Part shown: positions 50,135 to 63,032 of the stretch, piece by piece
How the letters are laid out: each line of letters begins with the position of its first letter
Position numbering within the stretch: the first letter of the stretch is position 1
NCBI GenBank assembly: GCA_031441465.1
Contig: JANOEP010000064.1
Coordinates: 1 to 63,032 of the forward strand
Source: a bacterium
GTDB taxonomy: Bacteria > Krumholzibacteriota > Krumholzibacteriia > LZORAL124-64-63
Reading direction: 5' to 3'
DNA length: 63,032 nucleotides
Notes under the pieces: model-generated
Seen by the model: only the letters and a program-made list of their open reading frames with translations
What the model was told of the DNA's origin: nothing
Databases searched by the model: none
Made by a program: the position numbers and the translations under genes

Positions 50135-52729
50135 ATGAAACCCCGGCTCCGTTCCCACCGCCTCGTGCTCGTCCTGGTGTCCGGCCTGATCCTGGCGGGG
50201 GGTCTCGCTGATCCGGCCCGTGCGGTCCCCCGCACGGTCCTGGGGGAGCTGTTCTCCTCGGCCGGCTGACCCTACTGCCCTTCCGCGGTCGCGGGATTCC
50301 ATGATCTGCTCGCCGCCTACGACAGCACCGAGTTCGTGCCGCTCACCTGGGACACCGGCACCGGCAGCGGCAGCACCCGTTTCAACTACTACGGTTTTTC
50401 GGGGACGCCGACGGCCGTGTTCGACGGGCTGGTCAGCTCCGTCGGCGGTTTGCCCAGCGGCAGCATGTTCGACAGCTACCAGCCGCTGGTGCAGAACCGT
50501 TTGGGCGCCGTCTCGCCCCTGACGATCACCGCGAGCTTCCTGGTCGCCGGGGTGAACGGATCGGTGACCGCCACCATCGAGGTGGCCTCGACCGTGACCA
50601 CGGGAGCCAACCAGGTGCGTTTTTACGTCTATGAGGCGTTGCCCCGGCCCGAGTACCCCAACTACGTGCGCGCGGTCCTGGCGAGCGAACCCTTCGCGCT
50701 GACCGTGCCCGGACAGTCGGTCACCGTCCAGCGCCCGTTCACCGTCGACCCGACGTGGGACCCCGAGCGCCTCGGTGTGATCGTCTTCGTGCAGAGCGAC
50801 GCGAACCGCGCGGTGCTGCAGGCCGTCGAAGCCGAGGCCGACTACGCCGGCGTCCTGACGGTCGACGCCCAGCCGGACGGGCTGGCGGCGCCGTGGACCC
50901 TGAGCGGGCCCGGCGGCTTCTCGCTCGCCGGCGTGGAGGACCGCGTCGTGCGCGTGTTCCTGGCCGGCGAGTACTCCCTGGCCTGGGGCGAGGTGCCCGG
51001 CTGGTCTTCGCCCGCGCCCGCGGTGACGACGGTGCAGCTGGCGCCGGACGACGAGATCACGCTGACGGGCCTCTACACCGACGGCCCCTTCGCGGCCGCG
51101 GCCGATGCGGACCTCGCCATGGCCGGCGCCGCGGCCCGCGGCGTGGCGATCGTCGACGCCGACGAGGACGGCGACCTGGACGTCTACGTCTCGGTCCACG
51201 GTGGCGCGAACGCGCTGCTGATCAACGAGGGCGGCCTGGCCTTCACCTCCGGCGGCCACGCCCTGCTGCGCGGTGTGGGCGCCGGCATGTCCGCGGTCTG
51301 GGCCGACGTGACCGGGGACGGTCACCGCGACGTCTACCTCGTGCGCGACGGCCAAGCCAACCTCCTGCTGCGCGCCGACGGCGCCGGCGGCTACCTCGAC
51401 GCGACCTTCGGCCCCGCGGGCGACACCGGACCAGGGACCTCGGTCGCCGCCGCCGACTACGATCGCGACGGCCTGCTGGATCTCTACGTGGTCAACGGCG
51501 GCACCGCGAACGTCCTGCTGCGCGGCGTGGCCGACATGGGCGTCGCCTGGTTCATGATGAACCAGATGGGGATCATCGCCGACACCGGCAACGGCGCCGG
51601 CGCGGCCTGGGGCGACTACGACAACGACGGCGACCAGGACCTCTACCTGACGAACCGCTTCACCGCCAACCGCCTCTTCCAGAACGGGGGGACCCTCGGC
51701 TGGTACAACGCGACCGGCACGGGCGTGCTGGCCGACACCGGCAACGGCGCCGGCGCGGCCTGGGGCGACTACGACAACGACGGGGACCTCGATCTCTACG
51801 TGGCCAACGACGGCCAGGCCGACCTGCTGATCCGCAACGACCGCGGCACCTGGGCGCTGATCGTCGGGTCGGCCCTGGGAGACGTCGGGCACGGCCGGGG
51901 CGTTGCCTGGGGCGACCTGGACAACGACGGGGACCTGGACCTGTACCTGGCCCGGCACGACGAGCCCGACCTCACGTTGCGCAACGACGGCGGCGGTGTG
52001 TTCACCCGCATCCCCGTGGGCGTGGCGACGGCCGCCGGCGTCGCCGAAGGCGTCGCCCTGGGCGACCTCGACGGCGATGGCGACCTGGACGTTTACATCG
52101 CCAACGACGGGGGACCGAGCGGCCTGCTGCTGAACGAGATGGCCGGCGGCAACCACTGGCTCCACCTGGACCTCACGGCGTCCGGCGCGAACACGTCGGC
52201 CGTAGGCGCCCGCGTCTGGCTGACCGCCGGCGGCGTGCGCCAGATGCGCGAGGTCAACGCCGGTTCCGGCTACCTGTCCCAGGACTCGCCGACGGTCGAG
52301 TTCGGCCTGGGCGGCGCCGCGATCGCCGACACCGTGCACATCCGCTGGCCCGACGGCCAGCAGCAGGTCGTCACCGGTTTGGCCGCCGACCGACGGCTGA
52401 ACGTGCGCCAGGGCGTTCCCGTCGTGGCGCCGCCCCAGGCGGCGGCGTTGCGGCTGCGGCTGGACGAGCCGTTCCCGAACCCGTTCAATCCCGCCACGAC
52501 CCTGCGGTACGAACTGCCGCGGGCCGGGAGCGTCGAACTGCGGATCTACGATGTCGCTGGCCGGCTCGTGCGCTCCCTGCGCTCGGGTGAGGTCGAGGCG
52601 GCGGGACGCCGCGAAGCCGTGTGGGACGGCCGGGACGACGCGGGGCGCGCCGCCGCCGCCGGCGCCTACGTCGTGCGCCTGTCGGCGGGCGGGGAGGCCC
52701 GCAGCCGGCGACTGCTGTTGGTGAAGTAG
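50135..52729 (+). CDS. Predicted secreted selenoprotein: Omp28-like thioredoxin domain (U-P-Y-C), FG-GAP repeats, ASPIC/UnbV, FlgD CTD
   Basis: ORF 50087-50269 and ORF 50336-52729 are in frame across TGA 50267-50269, giving VLGELFSSAG-U-PYCP. GGAGGA RBS and signal peptide lie upstream of the TGA; a hairpin follows it. Confidence 0.85.
50281..50296 (+). promoter_or_regulatory. Candidate bacterial SECIS element
   Basis: TTCCGC-GGTC-GCGGGA hairpin after an 11-nt spacer from the TGA, with GGUC apical loop. Confidence 0.65.
51578..51783 (+). repeat. 53-bp perfect direct repeat (51578-51630 and 51731-51783) within the FG-GAP repeats
   Basis: GCCGACACCGGCAACGGCGCCGGCGCGGCCTGGGGCGACTACGACAACGACGG occurs twice, period 153 bp. 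Confidence 0.85.
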
Positions 52730-55692: not shown

Positions 55693-56520
55693 TCAAGACC
55701 CGAGGTGGAGGTTCAGCAGCGGCAGCCAACGGGTGCCGCTGCGGTTGTTGCCGGCGTAGTTGAGCAGGCCGAGCTGGACCCCGTGCAGTTCGGCGGCGTA
55801 GTTGACGATGCCGATCTGCAGCCCTTGCACGCCGACATCGAAGCGGTTGTACGCCCCGACTCCGACCCCCGCCAGGACCTCGCCGCGCAGGTACGCCCCG
55901 CAAGCGGCCAGACCGGCGAAGCGGTCGGCGCGCAGGCCCCCGCCGGCGAGGGCGAGCCCGGTCAGCTCCTGGCCGCCGACGCCGAGTCCGCCGATGAACA
56001 CACCGGTCATCCGTCCACCGCCGACGCCGAGCCCGCCGGCGAACACGCCGGTCATCCGTTCGCCGCCGACGCCGAGGCCCCCGGCCACGATGCCCGTCAT
56101 GTCCTCGCCGCCGAACCCCAGCCCGCCCAGGCCGAGGCCCGTGAAGTCGTCGCAGCCGGCGCCCAGGCCGCCGACCGCCACGCCCCGCATCCGATCCGCA
56201 CCGCAGCCCAAGAGGTTCAGCGTGACGCCGTCGATCTCGTCGGCGGCCGTGCCGGCCAGACCGAGGCTCAGGCCCTGGATGCGGCCGCCGGGTTCGTCGG
56301 CGGGGGCCCACAACGAGACGGTCACGCCCCGGATCGTCTGCAGGTCACGGTCGCGCAGGTTGAAACGCAGTCCTGTGAACGTCTGCGAATTGCCGAAGGA
56401 CAGACCGGCGCCACGCACGGGCAGGTCCAGGGAACCCGCGACGGCGGGCACGGCCGCCGCGAGCGACAGCAGCAGCGCGGCAAGCAAGGGGTGGGCGCGG
56501 GGGGCACGAGGCATGGGCAT
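55693..56520 (-). CDS. Glycine-rich 15-aa repeat surface protein (LA_2272-like)
   Basis: Signal peptide; MTG(V/I)FxGGLGVGG repeats; GLQIGIVNYA.ELHGVQLGLLN..LPLLN tail. Confidence 0.7.
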   Translation of the reverse strand: MPMPRAPRAHPLLAALLLSLAAAVPAVAGSLDLPVRGAGLSFGNSQTFTGLRFNLRDRDLQTIRGVTVSLWAPADEPGGRIQGLSLGLAGTAADEIDGVTLNLLGCGADRMRGVAVGGLGAGCDDFTGLGLGGLGFGGEDMTGIVAGGLGVGGERMTGVFAGGLGVGGGRMTGVFIGGLGVGGQELTGLALAGGGLRADRFAGLAACGAYLRGEVLAGVGVGAYNRFDVGVQGLQIGIVNYAAELHGVQLGLLNYAGNNRSGTRWLPLLNLHLGS

Positions 56521-56633
56521 GACGGACCTCCGGGGGCGGCATCGGGCAACCAGAGCAGCGATGATTGGTGTTGAGACGCAATGCGGATCGGCGAGTTGCT
56601 CCCGCATGATGGGAATCCCGGGCCTCGGTCAGC

Positions 56634-56691: not shown

Positions 56692-56961
56692 TTACCAGCC
56701 CGACCGCTCCTGGCGCGGCTCGCGCGGGCGCGCTTCGTTGACGGTCAGCGCGCGACCGTCGAAGTCCTTGCCGTTCAGTTCGTCGATGGCGCGGCGGCCG
56801 GCGTCGTCTTCGGCCATGATCACGAAGCCGAAGCCGCGGGGGCGGCCGGTCTCCTTGTCGGTGATCAGGGTCACGTCCTCGACCTGGCCGTAAGGGACGA
56901 AGAGAGCCTTGATCTCTTCCTCGGACGAACGGAAATTGAGATTGCCCACATAGATCTTCAC
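56692..56961 (-). CDS. RRM (RNP-1) RNA-binding protein
   Basis: KIYVGNL RNP2, TGRPRGFGFV RNP1, LTVNEARPR; GTG start after AAGGA. Confidence 0.93.
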   Translation of the reverse strand: MKIYVGNLNFRSSEEEIKALFVPYGQVEDVTLITDKETGRPRGFGFVIMAEDDAGRRAIDELNGKDFDGRALTVNEARPREPRQERSGW

Positions 56962-57140
56962 TTGATCATCCTTTTGCTGGCCGGGACCGACGGCGGGACC
57001 ACTCGCGGGAACCGGAACGCCGTCGCTGGCGGAATCGGGAACGCGGCGGAGCCGCGGGATCGTCACGAAATCTATCGTGCTGAACGGCAATCCACAAGCC
57101 GCAGGGATGAAAAAGAGATAGGGACGTTACCTCGGTCGGG

Positions 57141-58748
57141 TCAGAATCGACTGACCAAGCGCAGTTCGACTCCGGTGAAGTCCGGCACCAGGTAACAGGT
57201 ACCCGAGGTGCAGGCGGTGCCGCCGCGCCGGCTGCCGGCGAACAGCGCGGCTTCGTGGTGACGGTTCAGAGGCGCCACCGCCACGGCTCCGATCCAGTGG
57301 CGGGGCTCCGTCTCGACGACGTCGAAGGTCAAGGGATCGTCCTTCTCGTCCGGATCGTTCGAGAATTCGGCCTGCAGGGCCAGCGTGCCTTGGCCCGCCC
57401 GGTCCACCCCGAGACCCAGGAAGATGTTTTCGAAGGCTGACACCTCGCCGAAGGTCGTTCGTTCCGCGCGCTGGTGCTCGGCGTTCAGGCGGAGGCTCAG
57501 CCCCCCACCGAATTCCCGGCCCACGGCGAGGCCCGCCGTGCAGTGGTCGGTGAGCCCCTCGACCTCGTCGCAGCCGGTGGCGGCGAAGACTTCCCAGTGC
57601 CAGAGTGCGAGCGGGTCGCCTTGCAGGGCGACGACGTCGAGTCGGTATTGCTTCAGGCCGTTGACTTCGTTGGCGGCCCGGGCTGATTCGACCTGGAGGG
57701 CCAATTCGCCGGGCAACGAACCCATCAGCGAGATCTGGCGGCCGTGCTCGCCGCCGGCGAGCAGGAAATGGGACATGCGGTTCAGCAGGTGCTGGCTCAT
57801 CTCGGGCACGAGGTTGGGCGGATCGTTCCAGCCGAGGGCGAATCCGTCGTAGTCCTTGGTCTCGAAGCTGGCTCCCCAGCGCCCGACGCTGATCTGGGTC
57901 GCCGTGTAGAAGGCGTGCGGGGTCGTCGCGCCGGTGTCGAGCCCGTCGCCCAGGGGATCCCAGGACTGGCCGGCGTACTCGGCATAAGCCTGCAGATCGA
58001 GGCCGCGCGCCGCCAGCGACGGCGCCAAGCGGGCGGCGCGCAGCGTCAGGTCGGTCGACGCATACTCGGCGAGTTCCGGCGATGAACCCGGGAGCTGGCG
58101 TTCGCTGCGCAGGTAGCCGGCGCCCAGGTCCAGCGCCGGGTGGAGCGTGAAGGTCGCGTGGCCGCCTCCGACGTGGCCTTCGCGGCGGGGCAACGCGACG
58201 ATCCCCGGTGGAACGTCGGGGTAGCGCACCGGTTCGCCGCCGAACAGCAGCGCCGAAACCGGTCCCCGGTTCGCCTCCAGGATCACGCCATCGAGGCTGC
58301 GGGCATCGGCGTACTGGGACGGCGGGAAGACGGCGTCGCGCACGACGCCCCCCAGTTCGAAGGCGCGGAACAGCAGCCCGCGGCCGAGCGTGGCGAAGCC
58401 GTCGCCGAGCCGCAGGCGCAGCCCCTCGTCCTCCCACTCGGCGTACTTCAGGGTGACTTCGTCGTAGCGGGCGGGCAGGAAGCCCTCGTCGCGGGATGGC
58501 TGGTAGCTCTCGGCGCGCAGCCCCGCACGCAGTCCGTCGCGGCTGTACACGAGGTCGAACCGGTCGTAGATGCCCGTCATGGCGTTCGTTTCGGTCAGGG
58601 GGTCCCGTCCCGCCTGCCAGAGCAGGAGGTTCGAGGCCTGCACCGAGCCCGACGAATCGCCGGCGCCGGCGAGCGTTGCCAACGGGTGGACCAGTCGTGA
58701 GCACAGCAGCGAGGCGACGCCGAGCGCGACGAGCCGTGACGTCTTCAT
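57141..58748 (-). CDS. DUF6029-like outer-membrane beta-barrel with C-terminal CxxGxC motif
   Basis: Signal peptide; LGDGFATLGRGLLFRAFE..D..LDG; C-terminal GSRRGGTACTSGTCYLVPDFTGVELRLVSRF ending in Phe; start overlaps the TlpA stop. Confidence 0.75.
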   Translation of the reverse strand: MKTSRLVALGVASLLCSRLVHPLATLAGAGDSSGSVQASNLLLWQAGRDPLTETNAMTGIYDRFDLVYSRDGLRAGLRAESYQPSRDEGFLPARYDEVTLKYAEWEDEGLRLRLGDGFATLGRGLLFRAFELGGVVRDAVFPPSQYADARSLDGVILEANRGPVSALLFGGEPVRYPDVPPGIVALPRREGHVGGGHATFTLHPALDLGAGYLRSERQLPGSSPELAEYASTDLTLRAARLAPSLAARGLDLQAYAEYAGQSWDPLGDGLDTGATTPHAFYTATQISVGRWGASFETKDYDGFALGWNDPPNLVPEMSQHLLNRMSHFLLAGGEHGRQISLMGSLPGELALQVESARAANEVNGLKQYRLDVVALQGDPLALWHWEVFAATGCDEVEGLTDHCTAGLAVGREFGGGLSLRLNAEHQRAERTTFGEVSAFENIFLGLGVDRAGQGTLALQAEFSNDPDEKDDPLTFDVVETEPRHWIGAVAVAPLNRHHEAALFAGSRRGGTACTSGTCYLVPDFTGVELRLVSRF

Positions 58749-59302
58749 TCGGCGGTCCCAGGCGCCGGGTCCAGCAGCGGCAACAGTTCCTGTTCCAGCA
58801 ACCGGACGTCGCCCTCCCGGTAACCACGGTGCAGAGAGCGGATCCGGCCTTCGCGATCGATGAGGAAGGTCATGGGAATGGCCTCCGCCCGGTAGAGCTG
58901 GGACGCCCGCTTCTCGGTATCGATCAGGATCGGGAACGTCAGGCCCAGCGCGCGGGCCGTGGCGCCGATCTTGGGGCGGTTGCGCGGCTCGTCGGTGCTG
59001 ACCGCCAGGACGGTCAGACCGCGCGGCGCGTAGCGGTCGTGCAATTGCTGCAGCTCCGGCAGGGCCTGACGGCAGGGGCCGCACCAGGTCGCCCAGAAGT
59101 CGAGGATCACCGGCCCCCGCTTCAGGGCCTCGCCCAGGACGACGCGATCTCCGGCCACGGTCTCGAGCGAGAACGCGGGGGCCGGCCCGAGGTCCGGTTC
59201 GGCCGTCGTGGCGTCTGCCGCACACCGGGACGCCACGGCCAGGGCGAGCAGCGCGGCGATGATGCTGGCGGAGCGCAGCTGGCCGGAGCCTGACGATGCC
59301 AT
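58745..59302 (-). CDS. TlpA-family thiol-disulfide oxidoreductase
   Basis: N-terminal hydrophobic segment; APAFSL, VILDFWATWCGPC, IPMTFLIDREG. Confidence 0.92.
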   Translation of the reverse strand: MASSGSGQLRSASIIAALLALAVASRCAADATTAEPDLGPAPAFSLETVAGDRVVLGEALKRGPVILDFWATWCGPCRQALPELQQLHDRYAPRGLTVLAVSTDEPRNRPKIGATARALGLTFPILIDTEKRASQLYRAEAIPMTFLIDREGRIRSLHRGYREGDVRLLEQELLPLLDPAPGTAE

Positions 59303-59310
59303 GCGACCTC

Positions 59311-60132
59311 CTACTTCAACAGGGTGACGAAACGCGACTGGCTCCGGCCGTCGACCGTGAGTTCGACGAGGTAATTGCCGCTGACCAGAGTACGGCCGCC
59401 AGCATCACGACCGTCCCAGTCGGCCACGTAGTCCCGCGCGCCGTCGTGGTGCCCGTCGACGAGCGTGCGCAGGACACGCCCCTGCACGTCCAGGATCCGC
59501 AACCGCACCTGCCGGCTGCCGTCGCCGTCGATCCGGTAGGCCAGGGTCGTGCTCGGATTGAAGGGGTTCGGGTAGCCCGGCCGCAGGCTGAACCCGTCGC
59601 GCGACGGTGTACCGGCAGCGGTGGGCAGGTCCGCCAGGGCGAGGTTGATCGCGGCGGTCGTCAGGGCCAGGTTCCAGCCGCTGCGGCGGAAGGTGATCAG
59701 CCCGTCTCCGCCGACGACGAAGAAGATGTCGTAGGTGCAGGCGTAGCTCGAGCCGATGCCGGCGGCGGCCGCGCCCATCAGTGCCGGGTAGGTGATGCCG
59801 GTGACCGAGAGGAAGGAATTGGTCTGGCTGAGGTTGCCGCCCCACATTTCCAGGCCGAGAGCCTGGAAATCCGGTCCGGCGAAGCTGTTGGCCATCGTCT
59901 GCGTGGACGGACCCGCCGCCCGGCAGCTGCTTCAGCCATGGCCGAACATGAACAGGAATTTCACCCTGCCGTCGTAGTCGGACAGGCTGTGTGTCTGGCC
60001 GGTCGTGCTCTGGAGGGTGAAACCGGCGGCGACGTCGCCGACCTGTCCGGTCGCTCCCGCAGTGCCGGCCACCAGCGCCAGCGCGGCGACGCCCAGCGCG
60101 GCCGCTCTCGTGAGGGGAGATCTGGTATTCAT
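59311..60132 (-). CDS. Predicted secreted selenoprotein: AhpC/TSA-TlpA-like redoxin (U-S-S-C) with FlgD CTD
   Basis: ORF 59932-60186 and ORF 59311-59895 are in frame across TGA 59934-59932: QVGDVAAGFTL..HSLSDYDGRVKFLFMFGHG-U-SSCRAAGP. AAGGA RBS and signal peptide; YPNPFNPSTT tail. Confidence 0.85.
59905..59921 (-). promoter_or_regulatory. Candidate bacterial SECIS element
   Basis: GGGCGG-CGGGT-CCGTCC hairpin after a 10-nt spacer from the TGA, with G-rich GGU loop. Confidence 0.6.
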
Positions 60133-60324
60133 GGCCAGTCCTTTCAGGATCAGTGCTTGCCGCACGCCTAATACAAGATAAAACACATCCTTAATATAGA
60201 TTCATAGTTCCACTGTGGCAATCGCCCCAATTCTCGGTAGGAGTAGGGATGACGGCTTCTGGAAACCGGAGTATCTTTCGCCTTCATTCTGGACGCCCCC
60301 CCCTCGGACCACGTGGAGGAACCC

Positions 60325-61875
60325 ATGTCCGGCGACCGCGATCTCATCCAGCCGAAGCCCGACATCGTCGCGCGCGCCCACATCTCCTCGATGCAGGAGT
60401 ACCGGCGCCTGTACCGTCTCTCGCTCGACGATCCCGAGACGTTCTGGGGCCGGCAGGCTGCGATCCTGGACTGGTTCCATCCCTGGCGGACCGTCTTCGA
60501 CCACGACTACGAGAACGTGGACTTCGGGTGGTACCTCGGCGGCCGGCTCAACGCCTGCTACAACTGCGTGGACCGGCACCTCAAGGAACGCGGCGACCGC
60601 ACGGCCATCATCTGGGCGAAGGACGAGCCGGGGGAGTACGAGCACATCTCCTACCGCGACCTCAAGCACCGGGTCGCCCGGGTGGCGAACGTCCTGCGCC
60701 ACCACGGCGTGCAGAAAGGCGACCGGGTCTGCCTGTACATGCCGATGATCCCGGACCTGGCCGTCGCCATGCTGGCCTGCGCGCGCATCGGCGCCGTCCA
60801 CTCGATCGTCTTCGGCGGCTTCAGCAGCGAGGCCATCCGCGACCGGATCCTCGACGCCGGCGCCAAGGTGGTCATCACCGCCAACGAAGGCCTGCGCGGG
60901 GGCAAGCGGCTGCGCCTGAAGGAGACCGTCGACCGGGCCGTCGACGGGCTGGATCTGGTCACGACCGTGCTGGTCGCCCGGCGCACGGACGCCGAGGTCG
61001 CCATGAGGGCGGGCCGCGACTTCTGGCTGGACGAGGAGTGCCGCAAGCAGCGGTCGACCTGCACGGTGGAGTGGATGGGGGCGGAGGACCCGCTGTTCAT
61101 CCTCTACACCTCCGGCTCGACGGGCAAGCCCAAGGGTGTCCTGCACACCACCGGCGGCTACCTGGTCTACGCCGCGATGACCCACAAGCTGGTCTTCGAC
61201 TACCACCCCGGCGACATCCACTTCTGCGCCGCGGACATCGGCTGGATCACCGGCCACTCCTACATCATCTACGGCCCGCTGGCCAACGGAGCCACCACGG
61301 TCATGTTCGAGTCGATCCCGACCTACCCCGACGCGGGGCGCTATTGGCAGATCGTCGACGACCTGGGCGTGAACATCTTCTACACCGCGCCCACGGCGCT
61401 CAGGGCGATCCACCGTTGCGGCGACGGCTTCCTGGCGGGCAGCCGCCGCGACTCGCTGCGGATCCTGGGGACCGTCGGCGAGCCCATCAACCCCGAGACG
61501 TGGCGCTGGTACCACGACCAGGTCGGCGGCGGGCGCTGCGCCGTGGTCGACACGTGGTGGCAGACCGAGACCGGCGGCGTGCTCATCTCGCCGCTGCCCG
61601 GCGTCACGCCGTTGAAGCCCGGCTCGGCCACGCTGCCCTTCTTCGGGATCAAACCCCTGCTCATGGACGAGCAGGGACGGCCGCTAACCGGCGACGGCGT
61701 CGCCGGGAACCTCTGCATCGAGCAGACGTGGCCGGGCCAGGCCCGCACCGTCTACGGCGACCACGAGCGTTTCCACGAGACGTACTTCACGCAATACCCG
61801 GGCTATTACTTCACGGGCGACGGCTGCCGCCGCGATGAGGACGGCTACTACTGGATCACCGGTCGTGTCGACGAC
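60325..61875 (+). CDS. acs: Acetyl-CoA synthetase, 3'-truncated at a chimeric junction
   Basis: [53 protein letters not shown]; homology is lost after that. Confidence 0.9.
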
Positions 61876-62751
61876 GCGCGCGACGACTTCGGTCGGCAAA
61901 TAAGCGAAGGGAACCTGTGCATCGAGACGGTTGCGGAATTCCGGCGCGAACAGCTTCTTCACCGCTTCTTCGCCAGCATCTTCCTTGCTGATATTATTGC
62001 CGAAGCCGATGCCTTCCTTGGCCATGTCGCTGGCCCCGGCATTGGTTGTCATAATCAGGATGACATTGCGGAAATCAACGGTCTTGCCATGATGGTCGGT
62101 CAGGCGGCCATTATCCATCACCTGCAACAATATGTTGAACAGATCAGGATGCGCCTTTTCAATTTCGTCGAGCAACAGCACACAATGCGGGTTCTGGTCG
62201 ACCGCGTCGGTCAGCAGACCGCCCTGATCGAAGCCGACATAGCCCGGAGGCGCACCGATCAGGCGCGATACCGAGTGCCGTTCCATATACTCGCTCATAT
62301 CAAAGCGCTTGAGCGGTATGCCCATGATCGAGGCAAGTTGCCGAGCAACTTCGGTCTTGCCAACGCCGGTGGGCCCGGAAAACAGATAGTTGCCAATCGG
62401 CTTGTCGCCATCGCGCAATCCGGCGCGGGACAATTTGATGGCGCTTGTCAAAACCTCGATGGCTTTGTCCTGTCCGAATACCACCCGTTTCAGATCCGCT
62501 TCGAGTGTACCCAAAGCCGTCTTGTCATCCTTGGATACATTTTTCGCCGGGATGCGGGCAATTGTTGCGATGACGGCTTCAATTTCGCGTGCGGTTATCA
62601 ACTTGCGGCGTTTGGACGGTGCGACAAGCATCTGCATCGCGCCAACCTCGTCAATGACATCGATGGCCTTATCAGGCAATTTACGGTCATTGATATAGCG
62701 CGCGGACAGCTCCACCGCGGCTTTTAAGGCGTCGGGGGTATATTTGACCTT
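61867..62751 (-). pseudogene. clpA: Internal fragment of ATP-dependent Clp protease ATPase ClpA, foreign codon usage
   Basis: [74 protein letters not shown]; no start or stop. Confidence 0.85.
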
Positions 62752-62892
62752 GAGCTGAAACTGCTCGACCTGGAGTTCGCCAACGAGATCCTGACCGGCG
62801 ACGGGCAGGACGTCGATGCGTCAGCGCCGAAGCGGTGGCGCAAGGAGGCGCAGGCGGAGGCGCAGGAGCGGTTCAGGAAGGGACGGCTCTGA
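62746..62892 (+). other. 3' end of an unidentified CDS joined to the clpA fragment
   Basis: High-GC open frame DLELKLLDLEFANEILTGDG..RFRKGRL-stop, followed by a hairpin. Confidence 0.4.
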
Positions 62893-62893
62893 C

Positions 62894-62919
62894 CCCTCTC
62901 CCGGTGGGAGAGGGTTTTT
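62894..62919 (+). terminator. CCCTCTCCC/GGGAGAGGG hairpin with U-tract (terminator or REP-like)
   Basis: CCCTCTCCC-GGT-GGGAGAGGG-TTTTT. Confidence 0.6.
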
Positions 62920-63032
62920 CTCTTTCGACATCCACCGGCAAGCCGCGCCTTCGCGGCGCAGACCGGGGGACCCCTCGACATCCTCCGGCCGATCGAAGAT
63001 CGGACCGGGGGAGGCGCCGTAGCGATGCGAAG

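What the first reader, a model, noticed from the sequence alone, without database searches (positions are those of the whole stretch)
57141..60132. Candidate thiol/selenol relay across the outer membrane: secreted Sec-redoxin + TlpA + DUF6029 CxxGxC barrel
Seen: three tightly coupled minus-strand genes (8-bp gap with GGAGG, then a 4-bp overlap). (i) A signal-peptide redoxin whose active site reads G-TGA-S-S-C (UxxC) and which ends in a FlgD/T9SS-like CTD. (ii) An envelope TlpA with WCGPC. (iii) A beta-barrel-like protein ending in Phe with CTSGTC near its C-terminus. Known: as I recall, TlpA-DUF6029-Omp28 clusters occur in Bacteroidota and DUF6029 is uncharacterised; T9SS CTDs route proteins beyond the outer membrane. 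Inference: periplasmic TlpA passes reducing equivalents through the barrel's dithiol loop to surface or extracellular seleno-redoxins, acting as an outer-membrane counterpart of DsbD. The Omp28-like selenoprotein at 50135 could be a second client.
Basis: partly seen in the sequence, partly recalled or inferred. Interest (0 to 1): 0.92.

Follow-up and report, generated by a model that had tools for sequence, protein, structure and literature searches.

The report
Outer-membrane barrel with dedicated thiol/selenol redoxins
Three tightly packed genes encode a periplasmic thiol reductase, a large outer-membrane barrel with an invariant cysteine pair and a surface-sorted selenocysteine redoxin; this trio is kept together across several bacterial phyla, has never been studied, and may carry thiol chemistry across the outer membrane.

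Summary
On the minus strand lie three genes. The first is a signal-peptide thioredoxin-fold protein with an in-frame TGA (G-U-S-S-C) and a C-terminal sorting domain (60132..59311). The second is a soluble TlpA/ResA-like WCGPC protein (59302..58745). The third is a DUF6029 barrel ending in Phe (58748..57141). They are joined by an 8-nt gap and an ATGA overlap.

The TGA is very probably selenocysteine. The genome has tRNA-Sec and SelB. All 23 listed homologues that span the site keep exactly one TGA. A covarying hairpin follows the codon.

The trio is a conserved module.
- A TlpA gene sits directly upstream of DUF6029 in 30 of 30 loci of the window's phylum.
- It does so in 75 of 80 Bacteroidota, Rhodothermota and Balneolota loci; the other 5 are cut by contig ends.
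- A homologue of the redoxin is adjacent in 76 of 80.
- These redoxins are either lipoproteins with acidic post-Cys tails or carry a secretion tail, so both kinds point to the cell surface.
- The barrel's Cys-x4-Cys is kept in 97 of 100 full-length relatives.
- The barrel model (pLDDT 91.9) resembles 24-stranded usher pores.

Electron relay through the barrel is plausible but not shown. A redox-assisted translocon is a serious rival. No paper found describes the module. This scan has noted the same module in at least eight other genomes.

The parts
60193..60221 (-). sigma-70-like promoter candidate (TTGCCA-17-TATATT) about 60 nt upstream of the first gene
   Evidence: 1 site found against 0.2 expected from shuffles. 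It is a consensus match only.
59311..60132 (-). Gene 1: secreted thioredoxin-fold selenoprotein. It has a signal peptide, a ResA/TlpA-like redoxin domain with U67-S-S-C70, a linker and a C-terminal beta-sandwich sorting domain.
   Evidence: AhpC-TSA 33.6 bits, FlgD_ig 27.6 bits; AF2 pLDDT 88.2, Trx fold plus sandwich at 181-271; ResA chains, TM 0.85-0.89, rmsd 1.7-1.8 A
59932..59934 (-). In-frame TGA read as selenocysteine (codon 67)
   Evidence: all 23 listed homologous matches that span this codon carry exactly one TGA; tRNA-Sec 67.8 bits and SelB 359 bits in the same genome.
59896..59913 (-). Conserved hairpin 19-36 nt after the UGA (bSECIS-like, G-rich loop)
   Evidence: 85% of cells paired against 70% in shuffles, and 4 of 5 pairs have compensatory changes among 12 orthologues.
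59314..59574 (-). C-terminal sorting domain of gene 1 (FlgD_ig / T9SS type A-like)
   Evidence: this domain matches the 62 scored places (the scoring cap) in most of the 41 related genomes searched. SprA (470.8 bits summed) and a PorU-like protein (403 bits, cut-off 420) in the genome.
58745..59302 (-). Gene 2: soluble periplasmic TlpA/ResA-like thiol-disulfide oxidoreductase; W-C74-G-P-C77 lies at 59072..59083
   Evidence: (PDB relatives 3kcm, 3gl3, ResA, 2m72)
57141..58748 (-). Gene 3: DUF6029 outer-membrane beta-barrel with a C-terminal Phe
   Evidence: AF2 pLDDT 91.9, pTM 0.88; FimD 3ohn_B Z 18.8, PapC Z 17.7, MtrB Z 14.7
57195..57212 (-). Invariant C513-T-S-G-T-C518 hairpin tip of the barrel, flanked by conserved R-R-G-G and F-x-G
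   Evidence: each Cys kept in 97 of 100 full-length relatives; invariant G505, C513, G516, C518, G526; strands 510-514 and 517-521
50135..52729 (+). Separate gene about 7 kb away: a secreted multidomain protein. It has an N-terminal thioredoxin-like domain with U45-P-Y-C, FG-GAP/ASPIC repeats and the same sorting domain. It is a possible further member of the surface redox set.
   Evidence: TGA kept in 14 of 15 listed homologous matches, at the same distance from the Sec-redoxin in genus relatives.

Best explanation
The three genes form one operon and belong to an undescribed, widely conserved envelope module.

Shown:
- (a) A small soluble periplasmic TlpA/ResA-like reductase is translationally coupled to the barrel.
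- (b) The partner is a large, roughly 24-stranded outer-membrane barrel (DUF6029). Its last inter-strand connection, inferred to face outward, is a glycine-flanked hairpin with an invariant Cys-x4-Cys.
- (c) One or more thioredoxin-fold proteins with a CxxC motif (here UxxC) carry a surface-sorting device.

Inferred mechanism:
1. An inner-membrane CcdA/DsbD, present in the genome, supplies reducing equivalents.
2. The soluble TlpA carries them across the periplasm to the barrel.
3. The barrel passes them to the surface redoxin, which would otherwise have no reductant outside the cell. It could do this through its cysteine hairpin, or by letting the two thioredoxin folds meet in or at its wide lumen.
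4. The redoxin then reduces an external oxidant or surface disulfides.

Selenocysteine at the attacking position makes the window's version a more reactive nucleophile. The electron path and the final substrate are not shown.
For: Operon anatomy: an 8-nt gap with GGAGG, an ATGA overlap and a single promoter-like site.

Conservation of the pair:
- TlpA lies directly upstream of DUF6029 in 30 of 30 phylum loci, in the second own-genome locus L018 and in the window's own locus L019.
- It does so in 75 of 80 loci from Bacteroidota, Rhodothermota and Balneolota. The other 5 have fewer than 210 nt of upstream sequence.
- In the 7 of 12 loci where both ORFs were called, stop and start lie within about 10 nt of each other.

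Conservation of the third partner:
- A homologue of gene 1 is adjacent in 76 of 80 loci.
- All 100 aligned active sites read C/U-x-x-C: 96 Cys and 4 TGA.
- The flanking genes differ from locus to locus (44 ORFs from 8 loci). The trio is therefore the unit.

Surface sorting by two unrelated devices:
- Of 87 adjacent redoxin ORFs, about 52 have a lipobox Cys, mostly followed by D/E-rich residues.
- 23 have a [YF]PNPF sorting tail.
- 5 more are 258-268 aa with a signal peptide and a C-terminal extension.
- The rest are truncated. Pfam Por_Secre_tail reaches 41.3 bits in L077.

The TlpAs of the module are about 160 aa with cleavable signals and no lipobox or anchor. That suits a diffusible shuttle.

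Barrel: the Cys pair is kept in 97 of 100 relatives, and glycines are invariant on both sides of the hairpin. The model is confident. It is most like 24-stranded usher pores and also resembles MtrB.

Genome: DsbD_TM 161 bits, SprA and a PorU-like protein.

Precedent for TlpA feeding an envelope peroxiredoxin: the ScsB-TlpA-PprX pathway of Caulobacter (abstract of PMC3322552).
Against: - No result shows contact or electron transfer between any two of the three proteins.
- The Cys pair lies at a tight hairpin tip where the two cysteines are cross-strand neighbours. That is also what a purely structural disulfide looks like.
- One of 100 relatives has lost both cysteines together (P0136, Y and F), as happens with structural pairs.
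- The hairpin precedes the last strand, so it should face outward. A periplasmic TlpA could reach it only through the lumen, and I could not inspect coordinates.
- In 5 of the 12 closest relatives of the Sec-redoxin, no TlpA or DUF6029 lies within 1.5 kb. The redoxin is therefore not obligately linked.
- In 3 of 8 phylum loci examined, the protein upstream of TlpA has no CxxC thioredoxin domain. It has only an Ig-like domain with Cys-x4-Cys.
- No CcdA/DsbD gene is part of the cluster.
- The central dipeptides of the surface redoxins (CPHC, CPSC) resemble oxidising DsbA-type sites. The redox meaning of the motif is recalled, not tested.
Confidence: 0.4

Rival explanations
1. Redox-assisted dedicated translocon. 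The usher-sized barrel exports the neighbouring small Cys-pair proteins to the surface. These are the redoxin and, in other loci, Omp28-like and Ig-like tail-bearing proteins. TlpA keeps their cysteines reduced in the periplasm. The outward Cys hairpin, or the oxidising outside, traps them by disulfide formation. That would be a ratchet like the mitochondrial Mia40 relay (comparison recalled).
For: - The best structural matches are the pilus-usher pores FimD and PapC, which pass folded 15-kDa domains. The model shows no plug domain.
- Neighbours always carry a Cys pair, as CxxC or Cys-x4-Cys.
[quoted passage not shown] The pathway is unknown (passages of PMC7712824; 'alternative secretion pathway' in PMC8754138).
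- Its neighbours by locus tag are Omp28 (PG2173), an uncharacterised vesicle protein (PG_2174) and a thioredoxin-domain protein (PG2175).
- Earlier scan notes say PG2174 is DUF6029. I could not verify that.
Against: - The partners already carry general export signals, either a T9SS tail or a lipoprotein signal with an acidic tail.
- The phylum's canonical partners are 640-860 aa multidomain proteins, too large for such a pore if folded.
- A thioredoxin fold does not need its CxxC oxidised in order to fold (general knowledge).
- That P. gingivalis PG2174 is DUF6029 was not confirmed. No Porphyromonas protein appeared among the 120 best hits.
Confidence: 0.22
2. The barrel is the client, not the conduit. 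It is a porin or channel whose outward Cys hairpin is a redox switch or a disulfide that needs help to form. TlpA (reset or keep reduced) and the surface redoxin (oxidise or sense peroxide) control its state. The module would then tune outer-membrane permeability or simply mature the barrel.
For: - The Cys pair is invariant, glycine hinges flank it, and many charged residues are invariant in loops (E296, K298, E316, R324, H327, E334). That pattern suggests a specific gated site.
- The surface redoxins have DsbA-like CPHC or CPSC dipeptides.
- TlpA and the barrel are translationally coupled.
Against: - A module whose enzymes only service their own barrel does not explain duplicated or tandem redoxins, or the Sec versions.
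- No transported substrate is suggested by any conserved neighbour.
Confidence: 0.13
3. DUF6029 is a polysaccharide-export or Wzi-like porin, and the thioredoxin genes are unrelated neighbours.
For: - The only paper found that names DUF6029 reports HHpred similarity between plug-less Wzi-barrel homologues and DUF6029, and suggests a polysaccharide role (passages of PMC9603273).
- Wzi (2ynk) matches the model at Z 14.1.
- One UniRef name reads 'Capsule assembly protein Wzi'.
Against: - None of the 44 flanking ORFs scanned in 8 loci belongs to a polysaccharide synthesis or export family (one is a polysaccharide lyase, a degradative enzyme). TlpA is adjacent in every locus with flank.
- Wzi ranks below ushers and several porins.
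Confidence: 0.05

Closest known systems
Periplasmic reducing pathways: CcdA/DsbD/ScsB to TlpA, ResA or CcmG, and the Caulobacter ScsB-TlpA-PprX peroxide pathway (PMC3322552, abstract seen)
   Same: A TlpA/ResA-fold reductase with W-C-x-P-C outside the cytoplasm, paired with a second thioredoxin/peroxiredoxin-fold protein. A DsbD-type membrane protein is present in the genome.
   Different: Here the TlpA is a free soluble protein, obligately paired with an outer-membrane barrel. The second redoxin carries surface-sorting signals. No known pathway includes an outer-membrane component. Curated TlpA and ResA models are far below cut-off (46.5 against 230 bits; 92.9 against 170 bits).
DsbD
   Same: The idea of a membrane protein whose own cysteine pair hands electrons from one compartment to thioredoxin folds in the next.
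   Different: DsbD is an alpha-helical inner-membrane protein with two flanking thioredoxin-like or Ig-like domains. DUF6029 is a stand-alone beta-barrel: 120 of 120 listed relatives in each of two searches are 398-554 aa and carry no thioredoxin domain. Access to its Cys pair from both sides is not shown.
MtrCAB porin-cytochrome conduit (PDB 6r2q)
   Same: A large barrel flanked by a periplasmic and a surface redox protein. MtrB aligns to the model over 383 residues at Z 14.7.
   Different: Mtr uses haem chains and the periplasmic partner is threaded into the barrel (recalled). Here the redox centres would be thiols or selenols, and no insertion is shown. Ushers match the barrel better.
Surface thioredoxin lipoproteins Etrx1/Etrx2 of Streptococcus pneumoniae (PDB 4hqz, 2yp6; PMC3914529, listing and start of abstract seen)
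   Same: Surface-exposed, ResA-like thioredoxin-fold lipoproteins. Etrx2 is among the structural matches of gene 1.
   Different: Those sit on the single membrane of a Gram-positive cell and need no outer-membrane step.
Porphyromonas gingivalis PG2172-PG2175 region (PorA, Omp28, PG_2174, thioredoxin-domain PG2175)
   Same: By locus tags, a thioredoxin-domain protein, an uncharacterised vesicle-borne protein, Omp28 and a tail-bearing surface protein lie side by side. The PDB entry 2m72 is the best solved relative of a Bacteroidales module TlpA (78.8 bits) and matches the window's TlpA (61.3 bits).
   Different: I did not confirm that PG_2174 is DUF6029 or that 2m72 is PG2175; both come from earlier scan notes. 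The partner there is Omp28-type and not the gene-1 type, and no selenocysteine is reported.
Chaperone-usher pores FimD and PapC
   Same: These are the closest solved folds to the barrel: Z 18.8 and 17.7, about 360 aligned residues, rmsd 4.5-5.0 A.
   Different: No plug, N-terminal or C-terminal usher domains. About 9-10% sequence identity. No chaperone or pilin genes nearby.

Membership tests
DUF6029 (PF19494) | Score above Pfam's gathering cut-off | tested here: met
   52.6 bits against 27. The window's copy is a divergent paralogue: only profile positions 59-127 form the best stretch, and it shares 23-28% identity with the canonical copies of the phylum.
DUF6029 (PF19494) | C-terminal signature G-x-R-R-G-G-x-x-C-x-x-G-x-C-Y ... 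F-x-G-x-E-x-R and an aromatic C-terminus | tested here: met
   Present in P0003. The Cys pair is kept in 97 of 100 full-length relatives. The signature is defined here from the alignment, not from a published description.
TlpA / ResA / CcmG class of extracytoplasmic thioredoxins | Thioredoxin fold with W-C-x-x-C and a signal or anchor | tested here: met
   WCGPC, AhpC-TSA 89.7 bits, Redoxin 70.5 bits, Thioredoxin 38 bits; ResA and DsbE structures at E 1e-19 to 1e-24
TlpA / ResA / CcmG class of extracytoplasmic thioredoxins | Equivalog-level match to curated TlpA, ResA or DsbE models | tested here: not met
   NF047696 46.5 against 230 bits; NF002854 92.9 against 170; TIGR00385 48.8 against 123. 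It is therefore called TlpA-like, not TlpA.
Bacterial selenoprotein | In-frame UGA conserved among orthologues, aligned with Cys in other homologues | tested here: met
   All 23 listed matches that span the codon have one TGA (150 of 2,503 rows were listed). 96 of 100 distant homologues have Cys there.
Bacterial selenoprotein | Sec decoding machinery in the genome | tested here: met
   tRNA-Sec 67.8 bits (cut-off 47) and SelB 359 bits (cut-off 242). SelA and SelD were not searched.
Bacterial selenoprotein | SECIS hairpin shortly after the UGA | tested here: inconclusive
   A 5-pair hairpin shows compensatory changes and beats the shuffled and slid controls. The single-sequence fold is no better than shuffles (z 0.11). 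The structure was derived from the same alignment.
T9SS type A cargo | C-terminal domain matching TIGR04183 / PF18962 | tested here: inconclusive
   TIGR04183 22.3 against 23 bits; PF18962 14.4 against 27; the related FlgD_ig scores 27.6 against 27. Balneolaceae homologues reach PF18962 41.3 bits.
T9SS type A cargo | T9SS machinery in the genome | tested here: met
   SprA 470.8 bits summed (cut-off 200). A PorU-like protein scores 403 bits over positions 4-1093, just under its cut-off of 420.
Peroxiredoxin (AhpC/TSA, catalytic Pro-Thr-Cys-Arg) | Conserved Arg before the V-V-I-D strand and Thr three residues before the peroxidatic Cys | tested here: not met
   The family has a near-invariant Y-D-R, but the window's protein reads Y-D-I (Ile136) and has G-H-G before U67. 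ResA-type folds match better than AhpE or Bcp. The tetrad itself is recalled.
Omp28 (PF11551), for the protein at 50135 | Score above the gathering cut-off | tested here: not met
   22.9 bits against 34.9; the related L067 protein scores 16.9 bits
DsbD-like transmembrane thiol relay | Membrane-embedded Cys pair alternately accessible from both sides, with demonstrated electron transfer | not testable with these tools
   Only secondary structure and confidence of the model are returned; no coordinates and no biochemistry.
Wzi-type polysaccharide porin | Genomic link to capsule or exopolysaccharide genes | tested here: not met
   None of the 44 flanking ORFs from 8 loci belongs to a polysaccharide synthesis or export family; one is a polysaccharide lyase. 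Structural Z to Wzi is 14.1, below ushers.

The most novel reading that the evidence does not exclude
The module is a thiol/selenol wire across the outer membrane. A diffusible periplasmic TlpA delivers electrons to a roughly 24-stranded barrel. The barrel's glycine-hinged Cys-x4-Cys hairpin acts as a shuttle disulfide to CxxC/UxxC redoxins on the cell surface. This would be a non-haem counterpart of the Mtr porin-cytochrome conduit and an outer-membrane counterpart of DsbD. It would give Bacteroidota-related bacteria enzymatic reducing power, here selenium-based, outside the cell.
Probability: 0.3. Interest if true: 0.92.

Novelty: new variant of a known kind. Interest (0 to 1): 0.78.

Why it matters
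Known thiol-reducing pathways of Gram-negative bacteria all end in the periplasm. How a thioredoxin-like protein on the cell surface could be recycled is an open question.

A three-gene module kept together across several phyla makes that question testable by genetics and thiol trapping. The module includes relatives in cultivable Flavobacterium, Carboxylicivirga and Gracilimonas. According to earlier scan notes it may also occur in the oral pathogen Porphyromonas gingivalis, next to porA.

Whichever reading is right (electron conduit, redox-driven export or redox-gated pore), an outer-membrane barrel obligately paired with a thiol reductase is not in the literature that I could search. The window adds a secreted selenoprotein version. 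Secreted, tail-sorted selenoproteins have not been described in the papers I found.

Tried and rejected
- Complex prediction of a Cys-form barrel with its redoxin domain (L104 proteins, with alignments A3 and A4). ipSAE was 0.29 and 0.03 against a mark of 0.32, so there is no verdict. It counts neither for nor against binding.
- The search for related loci with the broad alignment A1 failed for lack of a conserved stretch. A narrower alignment A2 worked.
- Search for fused forms. No relative of 882-2,515 aa was found (weak evidence, as that call itself says). The 120 best relatives of near length in each of two searches are 398-554 aa and carry PF19494; none has a thioredoxin domain. No TlpA-barrel fusion was seen.
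- Attempt to confirm that P. gingivalis PG2174 is DUF6029. Papers give only 'uncharacterized protein PG_2174'. No Porphyromonas entry is among the 120 best hits of a Bacteroidales DUF6029. This stays unverified.
It does not appear among the 21 sequence matches of gene 1 to solved structures, so I did not use it as a relative.
- Foldseek against the PDB gave only generic large barrels with TM 0.5 or less. VIA-align gave the usher ranking that I used instead.
- The single-sequence fold after the UGA is no better than shuffles in this GC-rich DNA. The comparative hairpin was used instead.
- I considered a peroxiredoxin reading of gene 1 and rejected it for the window's protein (Ile at the Arg position).
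- The strand count and membrane side of the hairpin could not be settled from secondary structure alone. I count 25 strand segments plus the hairpin, so one segment is not a wall strand.
- Literature searches for a description of the module: 'DUF6029' (2 papers, 1 work), Omp28/thioredoxin/TlpA, PorA/PG217x, and T9SS/thioredoxin/selenoprotein/outer membrane/surface-exposed. None describes it.
- Supplementary tables of the P. gingivalis vesicle papers were not opened. They may annotate PG2174.

Full report
**1. The observation**

The minus strand between 60132 and 57141 holds three consecutive open frames.

Gene 1 (60132..59311) is open only if the TGA at 59934..59932 is read through. It then gives 273 residues, in this order:
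- a signal-like N-terminus;
- a thioredoxin-fold domain whose active site reads G-H-G-U67-S-S-C70;
- a linker;
- a C-terminal beta-sandwich.

Pfam gives AhpC-TSA 33.6 bits and FlgD_ig 27.6 bits, both above cut-off. NCBIfam's T9SS type A sorting domain scores 22.3 bits against a cut-off of 23.

Gene 2 (59302..58745) is a 185-residue thioredoxin-fold protein with W-C-G-P-C (AhpC-TSA 89.7 bits, Redoxin 70.5 bits). The curated TlpA, ResA and DsbE equivalog models are far below their cut-offs, so I call it TlpA-like.

Gene 3 (58748..57141) is a 535-residue protein ending ...ACTSGTCYLVPDFTGVELRLVSRF. Pfam DUF6029 scores 52.6 bits against a cut-off of 27.

The stop of gene 1 overlaps a GGAGG and lies 8 nt before the ATG of gene 2. 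Genes 2 and 3 overlap by ATGA. One sigma-70-like site lies about 60 nt upstream of gene 1 (1 found against 0.2 expected).

**2. Is the TGA selenocysteine?**

- The assembly holds a tRNA-Sec (67.8 bits, cut-off 47) and a SelB (359 bits, cut-off 242).
- I searched 41 related genomes with stops read through. Every one of the 23 listed matches that span codon 67 carries exactly one TGA, down to about 30% identity. Listed matches without a TGA all begin at or after residue 67, or cover only the tail (150 of 2,503 rows were listed).
- In distant homologues from other phyla the aligned position is Cys in 96 of 100 segments and TGA in 4 (L088, L095, L111, L120).
- Downstream of the UGA, 12 orthologues share a short hairpin. 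Four of its five pairs show compensatory changes. 85% of cells are paired, against 70% in shuffles and 50% or less when the partner is slid.
- The single-sequence fold is no better than shuffles.

I take the selenoprotein reading as very probable.

The AF2 model of gene 1 (pLDDT 88.2) puts U67 at the start of helix 68-83 of a thioredoxin fold, followed by a separate sandwich at 181-271. Its nearest solved folds are ResA chains (TM 0.85-0.89 normalised to the target, rmsd 1.7-1.8 A). The pneumococcal surface lipoprotein Etrx2 and the peroxiredoxins AhpE and Bcp rank lower.

**3. The trio is a conserved module**

(a) Close relatives. Among the 12 closest loci of the Sec-redoxin (own locus included), 7 have TlpA and DUF6029 directly downstream. 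In the other 5 neither lies within the 1.5-kb flanks.

(b) The window's phylum.
- DUF6029 is found in 99 of 201 sampled genomes of the phylum, and in 3 places in the window's own genome.
- In the 30 best-scoring phylum loci, a TlpA homologue lies directly upstream of the barrel in 30 of 30.
- A protein ending in the same sorting tail lies upstream of that in 29 of 30; the remaining locus is cut.
- I extended eight of these loci. In 5, the upstream protein starts with a thioredoxin-like domain reading T-F-T-N-V-S-C-x-G-C (Omp28-like, below the Pfam cut-off). All 8 contain an Ig-like segment with W-x-x-S-x-C-x-G-x-x-C-Y-P-P or a close variant.

(c) Other phyla.
- In 80 loci from Bacteroidota, Rhodothermota and Balneolota, TlpA lies directly upstream of DUF6029 in 75. 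The other 5 have fewer than 210 nt of upstream sequence.
- A homologue of gene 1's redoxin domain is adjacent in 76 of 80, either upstream of TlpA or downstream of the barrel, and is often duplicated or a tandem two-domain protein.
- Pfam scans of 44 flanking ORFs in 8 of these loci show no other recurrent family, no CcdA/DsbD and no polysaccharide synthesis or export genes.

The unit is therefore TlpA plus barrel plus a surface redoxin.

**4. Where the parts should sit**

The 74 module TlpAs that I extracted are mostly 158-165 residues long. A few are longer or truncated. They have cleavable-looking signals and no lipobox, so they look like soluble periplasmic proteins.

Of the 87 adjacent redoxin ORFs (two lipobox calls were corrected by eye):
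- about 52 have a lipobox cysteine, in Bacteroidia usually followed by S-K-D-D/E or similar acidic runs;
- 23 have a [YF]PNPF tail;
- 5 more are 258-268 residues with a signal peptide and a C-terminal extension;
- 5 are truncated.

Acidic residues after the lipid-modified Cys are the Bacteroidota lipoprotein surface-export signal. That is recalled knowledge, not a call. Balneolaceae carry both forms in tandem, and the tailed one scores 41.3 bits on Por_Secre_tail. Two unrelated sorting devices thus point to the cell surface.

The window's genome has SprA (470.8 bits summed), a PorU-like protein (403 bits, cut-off 420) and a DsbD-type membrane protein (161 bits).

**5. The barrel**

An exhaustive HMMER search of 1.84 billion representatives finds only 334 relatives at E <= 0.001.

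Among the 100 full-length relatives (470-560 aa) of the query plus the 150 best:
- C513 and C518 are each kept in 97.
- Two exceptions have frame-shifted-looking C-termini.
- One has lost both cysteines together, to Y and F.

Invariant glycines (G505, G516, G526) and near-invariant R507 and G510 surround the pair. Many charged residues in loops are also invariant or nearly so.

The AF2 model is confident (pLDDT 91.9, pTM 0.88). It places the pair at the tip of a short hairpin (510-514 and 517-521) between strand 498-507 and the last strand 524-534. Outer-membrane barrels end in the periplasm (established knowledge), so this connection should face outward or fold into the lumen from outside. 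That is an inference; I could not see coordinates.

The best solved matches are the 24-stranded usher pores FimD (Z 18.8, 359 residues, rmsd 4.5 A) and PapC (Z 17.7). MtrB follows at Z 14.7 over 383 residues and Wzi at Z 14.1. No plug domain is apparent in the model. Relatives are stand-alone barrels.

**6. How it most likely works**

Shown: a conserved, translationally coupled pair of a soluble periplasmic reductase-type thioredoxin and a very large barrel with an invariant cysteine hairpin, always accompanied by surface-sorted CxxC/UxxC proteins.

Inferred: TlpA ferries reducing equivalents from the inner-membrane CcdA/DsbD to the barrel. The barrel passes them to the surface redoxin, either through its hairpin as a shuttle disulfide or by letting the two thioredoxin folds meet within its wide lumen.

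The known ScsB-TlpA-PprX pathway (abstract of PMC3322552) shows that TlpA proteins do feed second redoxins in the envelope. The new element is the outer-membrane step. I put this at 0.4.

Points against it:
- the hairpin geometry equally fits a structural staple;
- the hairpin should face outward;
- 5 of the 12 closest Sec-redoxin loci lack the pair nearby;
- some upstream partners have no CxxC domain;
- the CPHC and CPSC dipeptides look oxidising.

**7. Rivals**

(i) A redox-assisted translocon (0.22).
- The barrel is usher-sized, and the neighbours are small Cys-pair proteins.
- In P. gingivalis the tail-bearing PorA reaches the surface without the T9SS, by an unknown route (passages of PMC7712824; PMC8754138).
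- By locus tags PorA lies beside Omp28, an uncharacterised vesicle protein and a thioredoxin-domain protein.
- Earlier scan notes state that PG2174 is DUF6029 and that PDB 2m72 is PG2175. I confirmed only that 2m72 is the best solved relative of a Bacteroidales module TlpA.
- Against this rival: the partners already carry general export signals, and the phylum's canonical partners are 640-860 residues.

(ii) The barrel as client or redox-gated pore (0.13).

(iii) A Wzi-like polysaccharide porin, the only published suggestion (passages of PMC9603273). This is contradicted by the neighbourhoods (0.05).

**8. Comparison with the known, and novelty**

The parts belong to known fold classes. The combination is not described in the papers I could search.

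This scan has flagged the same module in at least eight other genomes. My results agree with those notes and were obtained independently on this window.

I rate it a new variant of the known extracytoplasmic thiol-reducing pathways. If thiol transfer across the outer membrane is real, it would be categorically new.

**9. Limits**

- No coordinates, no expression data and no biochemistry were available.
- The complex prediction gave no verdict and is not used as evidence.
- The lipoprotein export signal, the redox meaning of CxxC dipeptides, and the comparisons to Mia40, Ero1, LptDE and Slam are recalled.

Noticed in passing
window 50135-52729 (+): A second secreted selenoprotein candidate. It has a signal peptide, a thioredoxin-like domain with U45-P-Y-C (weak Omp28 match, 22.9 bits), FG-GAP/ASPIC repeats and the same sorting tail. 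The TGA is kept in 14 of 15 listed homologous matches, and the gene keeps its roughly 9-kb distance from the Sec-redoxin in genus relatives.
   Followed up: partly
window 61684-63032: The contig end looks chimeric or foreign. The acetyl-CoA synthetase frame (from 60313, +) loses its sense near 61880. A ClpA-like fragment runs on the opposite strand (61684..62715). GC falls from about 0.70 to about 0.55 after 61850.
   Followed up: partly
L062-L069 (phylum loci, proteins upstream of TlpA): All 8 tail-bearing proteins upstream of the canonical TlpA-DUF6029 pairs carry an Ig-like segment with W-x-x-S-x-C-x-G-x-x-C-Y-P-P-W or a close variant. This is a Cys-x4-Cys followed by Tyr in 7 of the 10 motif instances across the 8 proteins, like the barrel's own C-x-x-G-x-C-Y hairpin.
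   Followed up: no
L088, L095, L111, L120: In 4 of 100 redoxin segments from other phyla the first active-site Cys is replaced by TGA, in both the tailed and the lipoprotein forms. This suggests repeated Cys/Sec switching in this family.
   Followed up: partly
window 56692-57090 (-): A small RRM-type RNA-binding protein gene lies directly downstream of the barrel gene. It is not found next to the module in the other loci scanned.
   Followed up: no
window 55693-56607 (-): A secreted protein made of many Gly-rich repeats (G-G-L-G-V-G-G-x-x-M-T-G-V-F type). Its family was not examined.
   Followed up: no
L084, L092, L106, L108, L124 (Marinilabiliales-type loci): The lipoprotein redoxins carry 40-60-residue, highly acidic, low-complexity linkers between the lipid-modified Cys and the thioredoxin domain. 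These look like long tethers.
   Followed up: no
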